Below, piece by piece: positions 3,402-15,019 of a stretch of 18,870 nt of DNA. The stretch lies in the IMG/VR virus record IMGVR_UViG_2917886563_000006; one strand, 5' to 3'. Under the pieces are notes generated by a model, which saw only the letters and a list, made by a program, of their open reading frames with translations, was not told the origin of the DNA and did not search any database. Position 1 is the stretch's first letter, and each line of letters starts with the position of its first letter. This stretch comes from a virus (lineage: Duplodnaviria; Heunggongvirae; Uroviricota; Caudoviricetes). Made by a program: the position numbers and the translations under genes.

Positions 3402-3541
3402 ACGTCCTCCTTTTCCTGCGGTAGTGGTAACACCCCTGTTGGTGTTCTTTCACACCGGAGACACCATCGATTCCAGTAAGGCTGTCCTGGTCGAAAGCGA
3501 TCGTCTTCCTTTCGCTCTCCACATCGATAACAGTGCTTCAT
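3368..3541 (-). CDS. ninD: NinD (57 aa, Cys-rich)
   Basis: [57 protein letters not shown]; start at the internal Met so the ATG overlaps the upstream gene stop (ATGA). Confidence 0.7.
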
Positions 3542-4128
3542 GCGATCACCATTTTGCATGGTTTAATCGCCATGCCGGGAGCCAGTTCAAAATCGGAGTC
3601 GCACTGATTTCCCCACATATCCCACCCGGTCACTTTGTCGCGGCTAAATAACTCACAGCGCGGCACGTCGCCAAGCAACTTAGCTAACATGTCTCTTACG
3701 ATCGGTGGTTTTGCACTGTGCTCCATTCTCGGTGCGGTAAAGTGCTGGCATATTGAAGCGTCCATTCTCTCAGGTAACCGCCCTCGAACGGCAAACAAGC
3801 AATCCTCGCTATTTGCCCGGGTCATATGCCCCATTCCGATCGCACTGTTGCCTTTGTGCTTATTGGTTTTGTGCCAAGTAAAGCCTTTCATAGTCATCAA
3901 CCTGAATCCCCACGCCTCAATTACCTTTAGCGCTTCGGCTGGCTGTGTCGGCACCCACCACATCGCTAACAAGCAAGATTCTGGATCCGCTAAATCCCAT
4001 ACTGGCAGTCGGCAAATGTCCTGAACATTCATAACATCGTATTTATGTCCAGCACCGCGATTGCCATCGTTGGCTTTGTCGCGATATTGCCATGGCGGAT
4101 CTGCGTAAATAAGTTGGTATTTGTTCAT
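3538..4128 (-). CDS. DNA N6-adenine methyltransferase, DPPW-motif (MT-A70/Dam-like family), orphan (no cognate nuclease seen)
   Basis: 196-aa ORF with N-terminal [10 protein letters not shown] (catalytic motif IV of N6-adenine methyltransferases); occupies the position of lambda ninC between ninB and ninD. Confidence 0.8.
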
Positions 4129-4565
4129 TCAGTTTTATCTCCCCATCTCGCTTTCCACTCCAGAGCCAGTCGCGCTTCGTCTGACCACTTAACGCCATGT
4201 TCTGTACCGAATGCCTGTATAAGCTCTAATAGCTCCGCAAATTCGCTTACACGCATCCTGCTGGTTGACTGGCCTATTACCACAAAGCCATTCCCGGCAA
4301 GGTTAGGAACAACGTCTTGCTGCTTTAATGCTGCGGTAAACACACACTTCCAGCTTTCTGCATCCAGCCAGCGACCATGCCATTCAACCTGACGAGAGAC
4401 GTCACCAAGGCAAGCCCAAAGCTTTCGATTCTGGTCTAAGCTGCGGTTGCGTTCCTGAATGGTTACTACGATTGGTTTGGTTGGGTCTGGAAGGATTTGC
4501 TGGATAGCTTGAATGGCGTTCTGCTGATGGATGGGGCTTCTTAGTTCAAACGTTAGTTTCCTCAT
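4125..4565 (-). CDS. ninB: NinB (Orf recombination mediator)
   Basis: 146-aa ORF MRKLTFELRSPIHQQNAIQAIQQILPDPTKPIVVTIQERNRSLDQNRKLWACLGDV... matching lambda NinB as recalled. Confidence 0.9.
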   Translation of the reverse strand: MRKLTFELRSPIHQQNAIQAIQQILPDPTKPIVVTIQERNRSLDQNRKLWACLGDVSRQVEWHGRWLDAESWKCVFTAALKQQDVVPNLAGNGFVVIGQSTSRMRVSEFAELLELIQAFGTEHGVKWSDEARLALEWKARWGDKTE

Positions 4566-4782
4566 GGGATGAACTCCAGTGTGCGATGTTAAATTCCCAT
4601 TTAATTACCTTTGCATACCCAATTTTGAACCCATCAATACCTATCCACCGCTTGCCACTCCAATAAGCTGTACCACTTTGCTTGAAATGATGTGGATGCT
4701 TAGATTGAGTGGTCACTGTTACAGGTAAATATGGCTTCGGGTATTCCCCATTCCCTGGATAACCAGATTTAATTCTGCTCAT
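4546..4782 (-). CDS. Hypothetical protein (78 aa)
   Basis: ORF whose ATG overlaps the stop of the upstream membrane-protein gene (ATGA) and whose 3' end overlaps ninB by 20 nt; no recognisable motif. Confidence 0.4.
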   Translation of the reverse strand: MSRIKSGYPGNGEYPKPYLPVTVTTQSKHPHHFKQSGTAYWSGKRWIGIDGFKIGYAKVIKWEFNIAHWSSSHEETNV

Positions 4783-5105
4783 TGATACCCTCTCTCACTT
4801 AATCGCGCCCACGCTTCGTTAAACTCTTCTCGGGTTGCGCCGGATTTTCTTTCTTCAAACATCATGCATTCGCTGATGTCTCCCCATGACTTTGGTCGCT
4901 TTTCAGCGAACAGATCATCCCATTCGAATACCCAGCGTCCTGATTTTCGGTAGTGGTAAATGGTCAGCCATGTTGTGCTGTTCGCTGGATACCCATAGAG
5001 AACTTCGACTTTTTGATCACGGTCTTTATGCTTTTTCAGCAGGATAAAGCCAGCAACCAGCGAAGCTCCGGCAAGAATGATGATTGGAATTTGCCAGTCA
5101 GCCAC
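4779..5105 (-). CDS. Hypothetical membrane-anchored protein (108 aa, GTG start)
   Basis: Directly downstream of the tR2-like terminator, reusing a GGGGGAGAGGGAAG RBS context; N-terminal hydrophobic segment IPIIILAGASLVAGFILL followed by a charged soluble domain. Confidence 0.6.
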   Translation of the reverse strand: MADWQIPIIILAGASLVAGFILLKKHKDRDQKVEVLYGYPANSTTWLTIYHYRKSGRWVFEWDDLFAEKRPKSWGDISECMMFEERKSGATREEFNEAWARLSERGYQ

Positions 5106-5120
5106 ACTTCCCTCTCCCCC

Positions 5121-5152
5121 AAATAAAAAGGCCTGCGATTACCAGCAGGCCT
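5121..5152 (-). terminator. Intrinsic terminator, lambda tR2-like
   Basis: Minus-strand GGCCUGCUGGUAAUCGCAGGCC hairpin followed by UUUUUAUUU; sequence matches lambda tR2 as recalled. Confidence 0.7.
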
Positions 5153-5177
5153 GTTATTAGCTCAGTGATGTAGATGG

Positions 5178-6554
5178 TCATACGTCAGCCCCTTGTGCAT
5201 ATCGTCTGCCACGCGCAGCAGGTGCATTTGATGCTGTGCAAATCTGTCTGGCTTCATCCTGGTCACATGCAACAAAGTGTCCGTTGCAGAACCGCTGGTA
5301 AACCGTACCAAGCGAGCCAAAACGGTTTTTCGTCACGATGATTTCAGCAAATGGCGCGGCGCTACTGTTCTCGTCATATACCGCTTCCCGATAGAGCATG
5401 ATGATTGAGTCTGCGTCCTGTTCAATGCTTCCTGAATCACGCAAATCTGCGTTTGTCGGGCGTTTGTTTGGTCGCTTCTCAACATCGCGTGAAAGCTGAC
5501 TTAGGGAGATAACAGGCGTTTTCAGGTCTTTCGCCATCGCCTTAAGGCTTCCTGAGATGTGAGCAATTGCGAGGTCGTTGCGGTCTGCTTTCGGCTTCTC
5601 AATCAGGCCAAGATAATCCGCCATGATGAGTGACAGGTTTGGATTTTCCTGTTTGTGTCGTTCTGCGATTGAGCGTATTTCTTCGACCGATAACCGCGAG
5701 GCATCGACTACCCATACATCCAAATCTGCAAGCTGATTCATGCCGTTAGCAACACGCGCCCAGCCTTCGTCATCCATCGATGCAGGATTTCGCAGCACGC
5801 TAACCGGCATCCTCCCGGCGTTGGCAATGCTTCGCTCTGCAATCTGCAATGCGCTCATTTCCATTGAGAAAATCAATACCCCGCGCCGGACGTCAGAACC
5901 AGGAATAACGCGGCTTGCAACGCCTTCGGCAATCTTCAGCGCCAGTTCGGTTTTCCCCATACCAGGACGAGCAGCGATTATCACCAGGTCTTCCGCGTTC
6001 ATCCCTCCGGTGATGGCATCAAGTTCTTCGATTCCGGTCTTCAGGGTATCTGACTCTTCTCCGTTCCTCAGACGCCTGTCAAGCGTGTCAGTGTAGTCAG
6101 TAATGATTTCCCCTAACCGTACAGGTTTTACCTCGTCACGGGGCTTTCTGATGGCTGAAAGACGCTTTACGAGCTCGTCCATCGCCTGACTCGATGTATC
6201 GATGGTTCCGCTCTGAATTGGTTCACGCATTTCATCCATGATTTCCAGCACCAGACGGCGGTGATAGTTATCCGCGACCATTCCGGCATATCCCTTCAGG
6301 TTTGCGGCACTCGGGCAGTTTTTGCTGGTCATCAGGATTGACGTGAAATGCTCCTCTCCGCACGCCTCGGCAACCATCAGCGCGTCGATTAGGTTTCTGT
6401 TTCTCGCCTGCTTGCGGATAACCTCGAAGGCTTTCCGGTAGAGCGGAATTGAAAACGCTTCCGGCTCAAGCGTTGCCAGAACGTCACTGGCAGTTGGTGT
6501 TAATCCACCAATCAGCAGGCCACCGATAACGCTCGCTTCGATATCCTGTTTCAT
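5178..6554 (-). CDS. Replicative DNA helicase, DnaB family (phage-encoded; P22 gp12-like by size and position)
   Basis: 458-aa ORF; Walker A ARPGMGKT at residues 195-202, DnaB-like N-terminal domain; located where lambda P would be. Confidence 0.9.
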
Positions 6555-7372
6555 GCAATCCCCCTGTCTGCAAACTTCCCTTCCCGTACTCCCGTTAACG
6601 AGTCTTCCCTCAGCAGGTAATCAAAATCTGCCGTCCAGCCAGTGTCGTTGTCTCCGAAGTAAAACGGCTTGGCCTGATGTACAAACGCCCTGACATACGC
6701 TCTGAAACCGTCCACGTTTGGCGTTTTCAGTTGCGGGATGATTTTCTTCAGGCGGCGTTTGCGTTTCTCGTTGACCGCAACAGCGTGTGGCAGTCTGTCA
6801 CCGACTTCGGTGTTGTAGGCGTTCAGGAAGGATTCGTAGTCGATGCGTTCTGCCTTGCGACGTTCAGGTTTAACCTGCCCATCGCCACCCCCGTTAGGGG
6901 GTAAGGGGGTATTTGTATTTATTGTCTTTTGTATATTGTCTTTTGTGTTTAGCTGACTTGGCTTATACCCATTAGCCGACTTGGCTAATGTTTTATTAGC
7001 TGTTTTAGCTAATGTTAAGCTGTCCTGGCTAATCCACTGCGAAACCACCTTGTTCACTCCGATTTTCACGCCATCAGCAATGAGGAATTTACGCTCAATA
7101 AGCTGGCGCTTGGTAGCGCAAACATGAGTGTGATGAATACCTGTCATGGCTGCTATCTGCGTGTTTGTGAGTCGATCCATCGGCTTATTGAATCCGTATG
7201 TCTTGCGCATGATAGCGAGCATCACCTTCAACTGCCGGACAGTTAAATCAGCCATCAGCAGACTGTCGGCAATCTCGTTAGCAACGCGCATGAAACCATC
7301 TTCGGTATCTGCCACGCGATGCTCCACGACCTCCAGTTGAGGCCTGTAATCAGCTAACTTAACGACGCCCAT
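6551..7372 (-). CDS. Replication initiator, O-like (origin-binding)
   Basis: 273-aa ORF in the O position, ATGA-coupled to the helicase gene; contains the iteron/AT-rich origin within its coding sequence, as lambda O does. Confidence 0.85.
6905..7033. repeat. Replication origin: four ~18-bp iterons (6949-6966, 6972-6989, 6996-7013, 7015-7033) plus adjacent AT-rich tract (6905-6948)
   Basis: Direct repeats TTAGCTGACTTGGCTTAT / TTAGCCGACTTGGCTAAT / TTAGCTGTTTTAGCTAAT / TTAAGCTGTCCTGGCTAAT at 19-24-bp spacing, followed in the O reading direction by T/A-rich sequence. Confidence 0.65.
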
Positions 7373-7554: not shown

Positions 7555-7836
7555 TCAGGCCTCGAAGAATTCGCCGTTCTTCGGGGCTTTTTCTTTTGTC
7601 AGGTAATTGGCAAGCCGCTTAGTCAGCTCAGCCATTTCATCGTCTTCGATTCCGTATTCCAGAACAGCCAGCATCATGCTTACCTGCGAGAAGAAACCAT
7701 TCTTCCATCGGCTTACCTGATATTCAGGAACCCCCATCGCTCGAGCGAATGTCTTCTGCCCCATCAGTGCCAGTTTGTTCAGCAAGGCTGACTCGATGTG
7801 AGCCGCTTTCTTGCTTTTAGTTGCAATAGTACCCAT
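7555..7836 (-). CDS. cII: CII-like lysogeny transcriptional activator
   Basis: 93-aa ORF; IESALLNKLALMGQKTFARAMGVPEYQVSRWK...MLAVLEYGIEDDEMAEL aligns with lambda CII (HTH and tetramerisation region) as recalled; position between cro and O. Confidence 0.85.
   Translation of the reverse strand: MGTIATKSKKAAHIESALLNKLALMGQKTFARAMGVPEYQVSRWKNGFFSQVSMMLAVLEYGIEDDEMAELTKRLANYLTKEKAPKNGEFFEA
7559..7597 (+). terminator. Intrinsic terminator on + strand overlapping the cII 3' end (oop-like antisense RNA terminator)
   Basis: GCCTCGAAGAA-loop-TTCTTCGGGGC hairpin followed by TTTTTCTTTT on the + strand, antisense to cII; same arrangement as lambda oop/t0. Confidence 0.5.
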
Positions 7837-13018: not shown

Positions 13019-13312
13019 ATGCCAGCGCCTCTGTATGGTGCGGACGACGCGCGCCGCTGTTCCGGCAATTCCGTATTGGAGGTGCTGGATAAATTCAGAA
13101 AAAACTACGACCTGATAATGTCGCTACCGCAGGAAACGAAAGAGGAAAAGGAATTTCGCCATTGTATATGGCTTGCAGAGAAAGAAGAACGCGAGCGAAT
13201 TTACCAGACATCAATCCGACCATTCCGCAAAGCCACATATACCCACTTCCCTGAAATTGACCCGCGCCTGCGTAATTACCGCTCACGCTATGGCGCTATC
13301 AGTAATGACTGA
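13019..13312 (+). CDS. Hypothetical protein (97 aa)
   Basis: AGGAGA RBS 5 nt upstream of ATG; protein-like composition. Confidence 0.6.
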
Positions 13313-13322
13313 GGAATTTACC

Positions 13323-13487
13323 ATGAGAGGACTTGCATACAATCCCGGCATTCTTCCGGCAGAAATGATTATTCGCCAACGCGTAAAGCCAATGCCATCG
13401 AGAGAGGAATTGCTTAAGCGAAATTCTTTTCCTTCAGTGAGTCAAAACAAATATCTGAATGCGATGTGGCGGAGTGGGAAGAAATGA
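13323..13487 (+). CDS. Hypothetical small protein (54 aa)
   Basis: GAGGAA RBS 6 nt upstream of ATG at 13323; stop overlaps the next ATG (ATGA). The ORF-track 104-aa version with upstream start is rejected. Confidence 0.45.
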
Positions 13488-13894
13488 AACAAATGTCACT
13501 AATTGAGATTGATGGATTTCTGAAAGGTAAATGCATCCCACGAGATTTAAAGGTTAACGAAACAAACGCTGAATATCTGGTGCGTAAGTTCGGTGAACTT
13601 GAAGCTAAATGCGCGGCGCTGGCGGAGGAGAATGCTGGGCTGAAAAACGCAATGGCCGTAACTCTTGAGCATGTGTCGGTCACGGACGCAGGACAGGCCG
13701 GAGTAGCTGCGATGATTATCAATGATGCCCTGCACCACAGCGAAACCCCAGCCACCGACGCTTTCTTGGCTGAAGTCCGGGCGCAGGGATTGGAGATGTT
13801 TGCACAGAAATGTAACTCAAAATCCGAACAGTCGCTTGCATCTGATATACGCGACAACTGGAAAAACTCTAACTCGGTGGCCAGTTTTGGTTGA
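13484..13894 (+). CDS. Hypothetical protein (136 aa, predicted coiled-coil segment)
   Basis: Start at the ATG overlapping the upstream stop; heptad-like segment [30 protein letters not shown]. Confidence 0.55.
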
Positions 13895-13943
13895 CCACTT
13901 CAACGTTGACCTGGCCGCCAGCGGCGTTGCCTACAAAGAGCGG

Positions 13944-14054
13944 ATGAATATACCGGTAATTGCAGAACAGGTAGCCCGTGAGCAACCGGAGAACTTGCAC
14001 ACCTATTTCATGGAACGGCTACGATACTGGCCGGCGTTGAATTACTCCACATGA
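13944..14054 (+). CDS. Possible small ORF (36 aa; alternative TTG start at 13887 gives 56 aa)
   Basis: [36 protein letters not shown]; weak RBS; its stop lies 3 nt before the left direct repeat of the cassette. Confidence 0.25.
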
Positions 14055-14317: not shown

Positions 14318-15019
14318 ATGCCCAAAATTACCGGTGTTCTAGTGAGCCACCATGTGTTCGATATAAAAAAAGACATGGCTAATGGTTCATTCCCGAAAAC
14401 ATTATTTCCAGGCGCGACATTTCAGATGGTGGTTGACAATGATGTTGTCAATAATAATACGTTGGACTGGAGTGTTGTCACCAATGCGGGAGACAATTCG
14501 CTGACTGTAAATCAGGACGGCGTGGTGTCATTTTCAAATGATATTGATGAAAGTTGCATTGGTAAAACATTTGTTATTTTTGCGAAGGATAAAGCCACAG
14601 GGAAAAATGTGTCATCTTATTTAATTAAACCTTATCGCTTCTTTAAACCTCGTACCGCAACGTCGGACAGATTTTACGATGCATTGTTTTGGATTGAGGA
14701 TAAAAAAGGGACTGTCCCGGCACGACGCGATATCAATAATGTCCCTTTCGATGAACTGACGGGAGAAATGTTTCATGATGTAAAACGTGAAGTGAATTCC
14801 GGGCTTTTTCAGGAATGGGGATTTTTACTGTTTAGTGGGTGGACTAATCCTGTACGTGGTGATATTGGTAGTCTCGAATCAGAAATTTTCACTTTAGAAA
14901 ATGACAGTATATTTATATCGACAGTCAACTCCCTCCCATACTCCAGAGATCTCCATGATGATATGGACTCCCAGTCTGCACAGGCTGTAGCGTTTTACGG
15001 GGAATCTGTTGTTTCCTGA
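14318..15019 (+). CDS. Hypothetical protein (233 aa), cargo of the inverted-repeat-bounded AT-rich cassette
   Basis: Strong AAGGAG RBS 6 nt upstream of ATG; long AT-rich leader (14160-14317, sampled windows about 23-32% GC) and coding region about 40% GC versus a visibly higher-GC phage backbone; no signal peptide or transmembrane segment; no recognisable catalytic motif. Confidence 0.75.
   Translation: MPKITGVLVSHHVFDIKKDMANGSFPKTLFPGATFQMVVDNDVVNNNTLDWSVVTNAGDNSLTVNQDGVVSFSNDIDESCIGKTFVIFAKDKATGKNVSSYLIKPYRFFKPRTATSDRFYDALFWIEDKKGTVPARRDINNVPFDELTGEMFHDVKREVNSGLFQEWGFLLFSGWTNPVRGDIGSLESEIFTLENDSIFISTVNSLPYSRDLHDDMDSQSAQAVAFYGESVVS

What the first reader, a model, noticed from the sequence alone, without database searches (positions are those of the whole stretch)
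4546..5152. Two extra genes (membrane-anchored 108-aa protein and a 78-aa ORF) inserted between the tR2-like terminator and ninB
The tR2-like hairpin and the GGGGGAGAGGGAAG RBS context are retained, and as I recall lambda's arrangement they would normally lead straight into ninB. Here they lead instead into a GTG-initiated ORF with an N-terminal transmembrane anchor, followed by an ATGA-coupled 78-aa ORF that overlaps the ninB start by 20 nt. A recombination junction therefore lies exactly at the start codon. The membrane protein is a further candidate exclusion or immunity factor.
Basis: partly seen in the sequence, partly recalled or inferred. Interest (0 to 1): 0.45.

Follow-up and report, generated by a model that had tools for sequence, protein, structure and literature searches.

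The report
Two small accessory genes before ninB
A lambda-like prophage carries two small, real genes of unknown function slotted between a conserved terminator block and the ninB recombination gene, which is ordinary gene shuffling in this phage group and not evidence of an immunity factor.

Summary
All genes lie on the minus strand. A 76-nt block holding the lambda tR2 hairpin and the GGGGGAGAGGGAAG ribosome-binding site is 75/76 identical to lambda. It is followed by a GTG-started 108-aa ORF (4779-5105), an ATGA-coupled 78-aa ORF (4546-4782) and ninB (4125-4565, 20-nt overlap).

Both ORFs are real genes.
- ORF108 is 99% identical to Shigella phage Sf6 gene 46 (phrog_5903) and occurs in 108 of 5426 complete E. 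coli genomes.
- ORF78 (phrog_29435) occurs in 25 of those genomes and is never annotated there. It is under purifying selection (dN/dS 0.15 against an Enterobacter homolog) and has 62-aa relatives in Klebsiella phages.

The tR2 block is a known lambdoid "boundary sequence". It is present in 406 phage records, with varied genes on either side.

The two genes are independent and sit inside the repressed, terminator-gated pR operon. ORF108 relatives in strictly lytic phages lack the membrane anchor, and an Sf6 deletion that truncates gene 46 after about 15 codons is viable. The "exclusion or immunity factor" idea is therefore not supported.

Neither predicted fold matches a solved structure, so function stays unknown. 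This is ordinary nin-region mosaicism and of low interest.

The parts
5178..6554 (-). DnaB-like replicative helicase (context). Its stop codon overlaps the ATG of the mini-ORF (ATGA).
   Evidence: Pfam DnaB_C E 9.4e-78 and DnaB N-terminal domain. Coordinates.
5098..5181 (-). NinA-like 27-aa mini-ORF ([27 protein letters not shown]). It forms the conserved tR2 'boundary sequence' block.
   Evidence: The first 76 nt (window 5181-5106) are near-identical (1-2 mismatches each) to lambda, Sf6 and Oslo. The equivalent stretch in Sf6 is annotated as gene 45 (NinA-like), bsq6 boundary sequence and tR2 terminator. The block is present in 406 phage records.
5121..5152 (-). tR2-type intrinsic terminator: an 8-bp G+C-rich stem, an 8-nt loop and a TTTTATTT tail.
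   Evidence: Terminator scan, identity to lambda tR2 and the RNA fold showing the hairpin.
5107..5120 (-). GGGGGAGAGGGAAG ribosome-binding region. It serves ninB in lambda and ORF108 here.
   Evidence: Sequence read and alignment.
4779..5105 (-). ORF108, the ortholog of Sf6 gene 46 (phrog_5903). It has an N-terminal transmembrane helix and a conserved domain of about 75 aa (YGYP...WLTIYH...FEWDDLF), predicted to be cytoplasmic.
   Evidence: 99% identical to Sf6 gp46. phrog_5903 E 8.9e-76. 58 homologs and 36 clusters among 1.84 billion representatives. AlphaFold pLDDT 88.6. Annotated as a hypothetical protein in RefSeq.
4546..4782 (-). ORF78 (phrog_29435). It has a basic all-beta core of about 62 aa plus a 16-aa tail that runs through the ninB ribosome-binding site and start to a TGA inside ninB.
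   Evidence: phrog_29435 E 1.5e-57. dN/dS 0.15, with differences at codon positions 11/11/29. Klebsiella phage 62-aa homologs. 26 homologs. AlphaFold pLDDT 83.9. Unannotated in all 25 E. coli genomes that carry it.
4125..4565 (-). ninB (Orf-family recombination mediator), the downstream anchor of the region.
   Evidence: Pfam NinB E 1.3e-54, phrog_72 and alignment to lambda ninB.

Best explanation
These are two independent, real, small accessory genes of the lambdoid nin-region gene pool. They sit between a conserved boundary block (NinA-like mini-ORF plus tR2 terminator plus ribosome-binding site) and ninB.

Shown:
- The genes from helicase to ninB run helicase, mini-ORF, ORF108, ORF78, ninB. 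They are joined by overlaps of 4, 8, 4 and 20 nt.
- The region belongs to the rightward early (pR) operon of a prophage integrated next to ybhC.
- It lies downstream of tR2.

Inferred:
- Both proteins are therefore made only after induction or infection, once N antitermination reads through tR2. They are not made in the lysogen.
- The arrangement arose by homologous recombination at shared linker sequences, namely the tR2 block and the first bases of ninB. It was not a special insertion event.

ORF108 is the ortholog of Sf6 gp46. It is a single-pass inner-membrane protein, predicted N-out and C-in. Its roughly 75-aa four-strand-plus-helix domain would sit at the cytoplasmic face of the membrane.

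ORF78 is a small, strongly basic beta-barrel protein.

My committed functional guess is low-confidence, about 35%. Both would be dispensable lytic-cycle modulators that bind a host or phage factor. ORF108 would bind a target at the cytoplasmic face of the inner membrane. ORF78 would bind nucleic acid or an acidic partner. Prophage-expressed immunity or exclusion is less likely, about 10-15%.
For: Anatomy and coupling:
- The tR2 block matches lambda, Sf6 and Oslo with 1-2 mismatches in 76 nt.
- In Sf6 it is annotated as a boundary sequence and tR2 terminator.
- It occurs in 406 phage records, after ren, P, helicase or HNH genes and before varied genes.

ORF108:
- It is 99% identical to Sf6 gp46.
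- It is present in 108 of 5426 E. coli genomes.
- The family is conserved from residue 1, with invariant YGYP, WLT.YH.R and FEWDDLF motifs.
- The AlphaFold model is confident.

ORF78:
- dN/dS is 0.15.
- The ORF is intact in 9 of 9 sampled loci.
- Homologs occur in unrelated contexts in Klebsiella phages and prophages.
- The core carries a median net charge of +8 and a pI near 10.

Independence of the two genes:
- 83 of the 108 E. coli genomes with ORF108 lack ORF78.
- The Enterobacter ORF78 follows a different gene.
- Sf6 and Oslo have ORF108 without ORF78.

Expression context:
- CI, CII, O, helicase, nin genes and Q are laid out as in lambda or P22.
- No promoter-like site lies on the minus strand in 4000-5600.

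Dispensability:
- Sf6 isolate 3-7 carries a deletion of 30436-34441. This removes gene 46 from about codon 15, and the phage is viable and lyses faster (PMC5630979).

Lytic-cycle role:
- Homologs occur in T5-like, jumbo and Shuimuvirus lytic phages.
Against: - No function is known for either family.
- Topology is predicted only from charge bias and hydropathy.
- The promoter scan is a crude consensus match. It cannot exclude a weak or non-sigma-70 promoter that would express ORF108 in lysogens.
- The basic charge of ORF78 is only suggestive of nucleic-acid binding.
Confidence: 0.7

Rival explanations
1. ORF108 would be a membrane-anchored superinfection-exclusion or immunity factor that protects the lysogen, or the infected cell, from other phages.
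For: - It has an N-terminal transmembrane anchor.
- It is small and nonessential (PMC5630979).
- It sits where lambda carries ren, an exclusion-related gene.
- Many known exclusion proteins are small membrane proteins (general knowledge).
Against: - It is embedded in the repressed pR operon beyond tR2, with no promoter-like site.
- The MAD-TM-KKHKDRDQK layout predicts a cytoplasmic domain.
- 22 of 46 family representatives lack a transmembrane segment, including those of obligately lytic phages.
- It has no PADLOC match.
Confidence: 0.12
2. ORF78 would be a spurious open frame, that is, non-coding spacer between ORF108 and ninB. This is what its absence from RefSeq annotation implies.
For: No feature is annotated under it in any of the 25 E. 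coli genomes (examples). It has no Pfam family.
Against: - dN/dS is 0.15, with third-position bias, while the other two frames contain stops.
- 78-aa and 60-74-aa homologs at 43-78% identity occur in other genera and other genomic contexts.
- It matches a full-length PHROG family.
- The AlphaFold beta-barrel model is confident.
- It has the ATGA start overlap and a GAGG ribosome-binding site.
Confidence: 0.03
3. ORF108 and ORF78 would form a two-component unit, such as a membrane anchor with a soluble partner, or a toxin with its antidote. They would have been acquired together.
For: They are ATGA-coupled. All 25 E. coli genomes with ORF78 carry ORF108 immediately upstream.
Against: - Those 25 copies are 97-99% identical and so share descent.
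- 83 of the 108 genomes with ORF108 lack ORF78.
- Sf6 and Oslo have ORF108 alone.
- ORF78 homologs in Enterobacter and Klebsiella have other neighbours.
Confidence: 0.05

Closest known systems
Shigella phage Sf6 gene 46 (NP_958221) and the Sf6 tR2 / bsq6 boundary region
   Same: The tR2 block matches with one mismatch in 76 nt. The gene starts at the same GTG. The protein is 99% identical.
   Different: Sf6 follows gene 46 with genes 47-49 before ninB. The window has ORF78 instead. Sf6 gp46 is also uncharacterised.
Phage lambda ren - tR2 - ninB region
   Same: Same 76-nt tR2 and ribosome-binding block (75/76 identical), same ninB, same operon logic of N-dependent read-through.
   Different: In lambda the block leads directly into ninB. 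Here 540 nt encoding two genes intervene, and the upstream gene is a DnaB-type helicase rather than P and ren.
Lambdoid nin-region accessory gene pool (tightly packed, ATGA-coupled, nonessential genes)
   Same: Tight packing with overlapping stop and start codons, mosaic distribution and dispensability. This is described in the phage L genome paper and in PMC5630979.
   Different: None in kind. These two families simply have no assigned name or function.
Small membrane superinfection-exclusion proteins
   Same: Small size, a single hydrophobic N-terminal segment and phage origin.
   Different: ORF108 is not placed for prophage expression. Its domain is predicted to be cytoplasmic. Its family includes soluble members in lytic phages. 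No sequence or fold similarity was found.
Pfam DUF1660 (small prophage proteins with C..GH and CxxC motifs)
   Same: Distant members of the ORF108 family carry C-x4-H and C-x2-C. They give sub-threshold DUF1660 hits (P0103 E 0.0025 at 18.8 bits against a cut-off of 21.4).
   Different: The window protein lacks the Cys/His ligands (it has Y52 and S55 in place of the two Cys) and gives no DUF1660 hit. DUF1660 is itself of unknown function.

Membership tests
phrog_5903 / Sf6 gp46 family (ORF108) | Full-length sequence match to the family profile. | tested here: met
   E 8.9e-76 over 1-108 of 108. 99% identity to Sf6 gp46.
phrog_5903 / Sf6 gp46 family (ORF108) | Conserved core motifs YGYP, WLT.YH.R, FEWDDLF and RP. 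| tested here: met
   These columns are invariant in a 21-sequence alignment.
phrog_29435 (ORF78) | Full-length sequence match, with a reading frame kept under purifying selection. | tested here: met
   E 1.5e-57 over 1-78 of 78. dN/dS 0.15. Invariant GYPGN, AYWSG and VIKW motifs.
Lambda tR2 intrinsic terminator | Sequence identity of the hairpin and U-tract, at the same position upstream of the nin genes. | tested here: met
   One mismatch to lambda in the 76-nt block; hairpin and T-tract themselves identical. Terminator scan hit at 5152-5129.
Lambda tR2 intrinsic terminator | Actual termination, relieved by N. | not testable with these tools
   This needs transcription assays or RNA-seq of induced lysogens with and without N.
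Prophage-expressed exclusion / immunity factor | Expression in the lysogen, from its own promoter or from outside the repressed operons. | tested here: not met
   The gene lies inside the pR operon beyond tR2. No promoter-like site lies on the minus strand in 4000-5600. The scan is a crude consensus match, so this result is weak.
Prophage-expressed exclusion / immunity factor | Membrane localisation. | tested here: met
   Predicted transmembrane helix at residues 4-27. This is a prediction only.
Prophage-expressed exclusion / immunity factor | Homology to a known exclusion or defence protein. | tested here: not met
Classical moron (Hendrix/Juhala sense) | An autonomous unit with its own promoter and terminator. 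| tested here: not met
   No promoter-like site was found. The genes overlap their neighbours by 4-20 nt, so they are operon-embedded accessory genes.
Pfam DUF1660 | Score above the gathering threshold, with the C..H / CxxC ligands present. | tested here: not met
   The window protein gives no hit. Only distant family members reach 13-19 bits, below the 21.4 cut-off.
Pfam DUF551 (recalled resemblance for ORF78) | Profile similarity to a DUF551 protein. | tested here: not met
   hhalign probability 0.15% against a DUF551 protein from L024. No Pfam hit for any of 23 family members.

The most novel reading that the evidence does not exclude
The conserved domain of about 75 aa in ORF108 (Sf6 gp46 family) is shared by temperate and strictly lytic enterobacterial phages. 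It comes with three alternative N-termini: a transmembrane anchor, an amphipathic segment or a Cys/His knuckle. It could be an uncharacterised host-takeover or anti-defence module that acts at the cytoplasmic face of the membrane or near the replication machinery. In about 8 of 12 contexts examined, the gene lies within a few genes downstream of a helicase, primase or polymerase gene. ORF78 could be a new small basic nucleic-acid-binding barrel that has been overlooked by genome annotation.
Probability: 0.15. Interest if true: 0.5.

Novelty: already known. Interest (0 to 1): 0.18.

Why it matters
It matters little beyond annotation. The region is a clean, well-resolved example of lambdoid mosaicism at a conserved terminator and linker block.

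There are two practical points. First, ORF78 is a selected protein-coding gene that RefSeq annotation misses in all 25 complete E. coli genomes that carry it. Second, the Sf6 gp46 family is a compact, confidently folded domain with no structural relative. It is shared by temperate and lytic phages, which makes it a reasonable candidate for accessory-gene function screens.

Tried and rejected

2. Sequence searches. Profile searches of PDB sequences found nothing. PADLOC found nothing. Pfam found nothing for the ORF78 family, and only a sub-threshold FG-GAP hit for ORF108.

3. DUF551. I recalled a resemblance between ORF78 and DUF551. It was rejected by hhalign, with probability 0.15%.

4. Two-gene functional pair. 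Rejected on distribution.

5. Conserved neighbours. PF26207 and DUF7740 genes flank one family or the other in some phages, but not consistently.

6. Literature. Searches for the accession numbers, the PHROG ids and DUF1660 found nothing.

I redid it with database homologs.

Full report
**Setting**

The window is the early region of a lambdoid prophage. The rightward operon runs on the minus strand:
- CII: 7555-7836
- O-like replication protein: 6551-7372
- DnaB-like helicase: 5178-6554
- ninB: 4125-4565
- MT-A70 methyltransferase: 3538-4128
- NinE, NinX, NinG, a phosphoesterase, and Q at 617-1240

The plus strand carries a CI-type repressor, N, recombination genes, a lambda-type integrase (16382-17452) and then a host pectinesterase gene of the ybhC type. 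The finding therefore lies in the delayed-early part of the pR operon.

**Observation**

- The hairpin AGGCCTGC/TGGTAATC/GCAGGCCT is at 5152-5129, and TTTTATTT follows.
- GGGGGAGAGGGAAG is at 5120-5107.
- ORF108 is GTG-started and runs 5105-4779.
- ORF78 runs 4782-4546 and starts in an ATGA overlap with the ORF108 stop.
- ninB overlaps the end of ORF78 by 20 nt.

Alignment with lambda, Sf6 and Salmonella phage Oslo shows a 76-nt stretch (ATGACCATC ... GGGAAGT) with a single variable column; lambda and Sf6 each differ from the window by one base and Oslo by two. After it, lambda reads CATGAAAAAACT (ninB), while the window, Sf6 and Oslo read GTGGCTGAC. Similarity to lambda resumes at the CATGA of ninB.

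The conserved block is itself a 27-aa NinA-like mini-ORF (5181-5098). Its ATG overlaps the helicase stop, and its stop overlaps the ORF108 start by 8 nt. In Sf6 the same stretch is annotated as gene 45, "bsq6; boundary sequence", and as a terminator "homology to phage lambda; tR2".

**Are the ORFs genes?**

ORF108:
- It matches phrog_5903 end to end (E 8.9e-76).
- It is 99% identical to Sf6 gene 46 and 98% identical to a Salmonella phage copy.
- It is annotated as a hypothetical protein in RefSeq.
- It occurs in 108 of 5426 complete E. coli genomes.
- Homologs down to about 40% identity align from residue 1. They share invariant YGYP, WLT.YH.R and FEWDDLF motifs.

ORF78:
- It matches phrog_29435 end to end (E 1.5e-57).
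- It occurs in 25 of 5426 genomes, with no annotated feature under it in any of them.
- It is nonetheless coding. Against an Enterobacter ludwigii prophage copy (78% amino-acid identity, same length, same 20-nt overlap with ninB), dS is 0.96 and dN is 0.145. Differences fall 11/11/29 by codon position, and the other two frames are full of stops.
- It is intact in 9 of 9 sampled E. coli loci.
- Homologs of 60-74 aa occur in Klebsiella siphophages, in a small island between tail genes, and in other phage and prophage early regions.
- Those homologs end three residues after the invariant W62. The lambdoid version therefore carries a 16-aa tail (EFNIAHWSSSHEETNV). Its last six codons are simply the ninB 5' end read in another frame.

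**How the arrangement arose**

The tR2 block is found at 90% identity or better in 406 phage records. It follows ren, P, helicase or HNH genes and precedes ninB or other genes. Most matches stop at base 75-77 of the 84-nt block, which is exactly the ...GGGAAGT breakpoint.

Among E. coli prophages the shared module begins exactly at the mini-ORF ATG. Unrelated replication genes lie upstream of it (hits covering query bases 120-901).

Downstream, the partners vary:
- Sf6 diverges 6 nt before the gene 46 stop and carries genes 47-49.
- Oslo has ORF108 and then ninB, yet keeps the first roughly 17 nt of ORF78.
- The Enterobacter prophage has ORF78 behind a different gene.

This is the familiar shuffling of tightly packed, ATGA-coupled, nonessential nin-region genes (phage L genome paper; PMC5630979). 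It is one of four module boundaries, near 5181, 5106, 4780 and 4567, and not a unique insertion scar.

**What the proteins look like**

ORF108:
- AlphaFold gives pLDDT 88.6. The model has a helix at 5-27, then four strands and a C-terminal helix.
- The hydrophobic segment (WQIPIIILAGASLVAGFILL, Kyte-Doolittle 2.28) follows MAD and precedes KKHKDRDQK. The positive-inside rule therefore places the conserved domain in the cytoplasm.
- Of 46 family representatives, 24 have such an anchor. Nine instead have a C-x4-H plus C-x2-C pattern, with sub-threshold DUF1660 hits. The rest have short amphipathic N-termini.
- The copies in T5-like KookSpook, jumbo phage Goslar and IME207 have no anchor.
- The family is small, at 36 clusters in 1.84 billion representatives, and all members are short.

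ORF78:
- AlphaFold gives pLDDT 83.9 and an all-beta barrel. The tail is modelled with low confidence.
- The core is strongly basic across the family, with a median net charge of +8 and a pI near 10.

**Function**

Shown:
- Both genes are in a repressed, terminator-gated operon.
- They overlap their neighbours.
- No promoter-like site lies on their strand.
- Sf6 isolates with deletions reaching into gene 46 are viable and lyse faster. An example is isolate 3-7, with a deletion of 30436-34441 (PMC5630979).
- The two genes are distributed independently of each other.

Inferred:
- They are expressed during lytic growth only.
- They act as dispensable modulators.

My committed guess, at about 35%, is as follows. 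ORF108 tethers a binding domain to the cytoplasmic face of the inner membrane to engage a host or phage factor. ORF78 binds nucleic acid or an acidic partner. The exclusion or immunity reading gets about 10-15%, for four reasons: the expression context, the predicted topology, the anchor-less homologs in lytic phages, and the lack of any similarity to known systems.

One soft lead remains. In about 8 of 12 contexts, ORF108-family genes lie within a few genes downstream of a helicase, primase or polymerase gene. That may only reflect where accessory genes accumulate.

**Verdict**

The feature is ordinary, already-catalogued nin-region mosaicism involving two uncharacterised families. The only mildly new points are these: ORF78 is a selected gene that is systematically missing from RefSeq annotation, and the gp46 family spans temperate and lytic phages with interchangeable N-termini.

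Noticed in passing
window 5098-5181 (-); L015 199-600: The tR2 hairpin lies inside a hydrophobic 27-aa NinA-like mini-ORF. In E. coli JNE120393 a 1-nt deletion in the G/A-rich tract (GGGGGAGAGGG to GGGG-GGGGG) fuses it in frame to ORF108. The result is an annotated 133-aa protein with two hydrophobic segments.
   Followed up: partly
window 4546-4782 (-): ORF78 has no annotated feature in any of the 25 complete RefSeq E. coli genomes that carry it. It is nonetheless under purifying selection and has a PHROG family.
   Followed up: yes
L002 2900-2926 (Salmonella phage Oslo): Oslo has the ORF108 ortholog followed directly by ninB. It still keeps the first roughly 17 nt of ORF78 (ATGAGCAGAATTAAGTC), which looks like the scar of a recombination or deletion event.
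   Followed up: partly
proteins P0094, P0097-P0101, P0103, P0105, P0106, P0112: Distant members of the ORF108 family replace the transmembrane segment with C-x4-H. They carry C-x2-C where the window protein has Y52 and S55. This suggests a zinc knuckle that was lost in the anchored branch. The DUF1660 hits are weak and sub-threshold.
   Followed up: partly
L013 1497-1800 (E. coli PEC011): Here ORF78 is followed by only the first bases of ninB and then a truncated rusA pseudogene. This is a deletion that removed ninB through part of rusA but left ORF78 and its tail intact.
   Followed up: partly
window 3538-4128 (-): An MT-A70-family DNA methyltransferase directly follows ninB, with an ATGA overlap at 4125-4128. 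It sits where lambda has ninC, so this is another swapped nin module.
   Followed up: no
window 13019-14054 and 14318-15019 (+): The leftward operon carries a P22-type anti-RecBCD Abc2 homolog, a homolog of DNA polymerase III theta subunit, and a protein with an invasin D4 domain.
   Followed up: no
L006 3738-3998; L022 2702-2998; L029 2059-2582: Genes of Pfam family PF26207 (Phage_phiTE_015) sit immediately upstream of an ORF78 homolog in one phage. In others they sit immediately upstream of, or near, ORF108 homologs. These small genes appear to circulate in one shared accessory pool.
   Followed up: no
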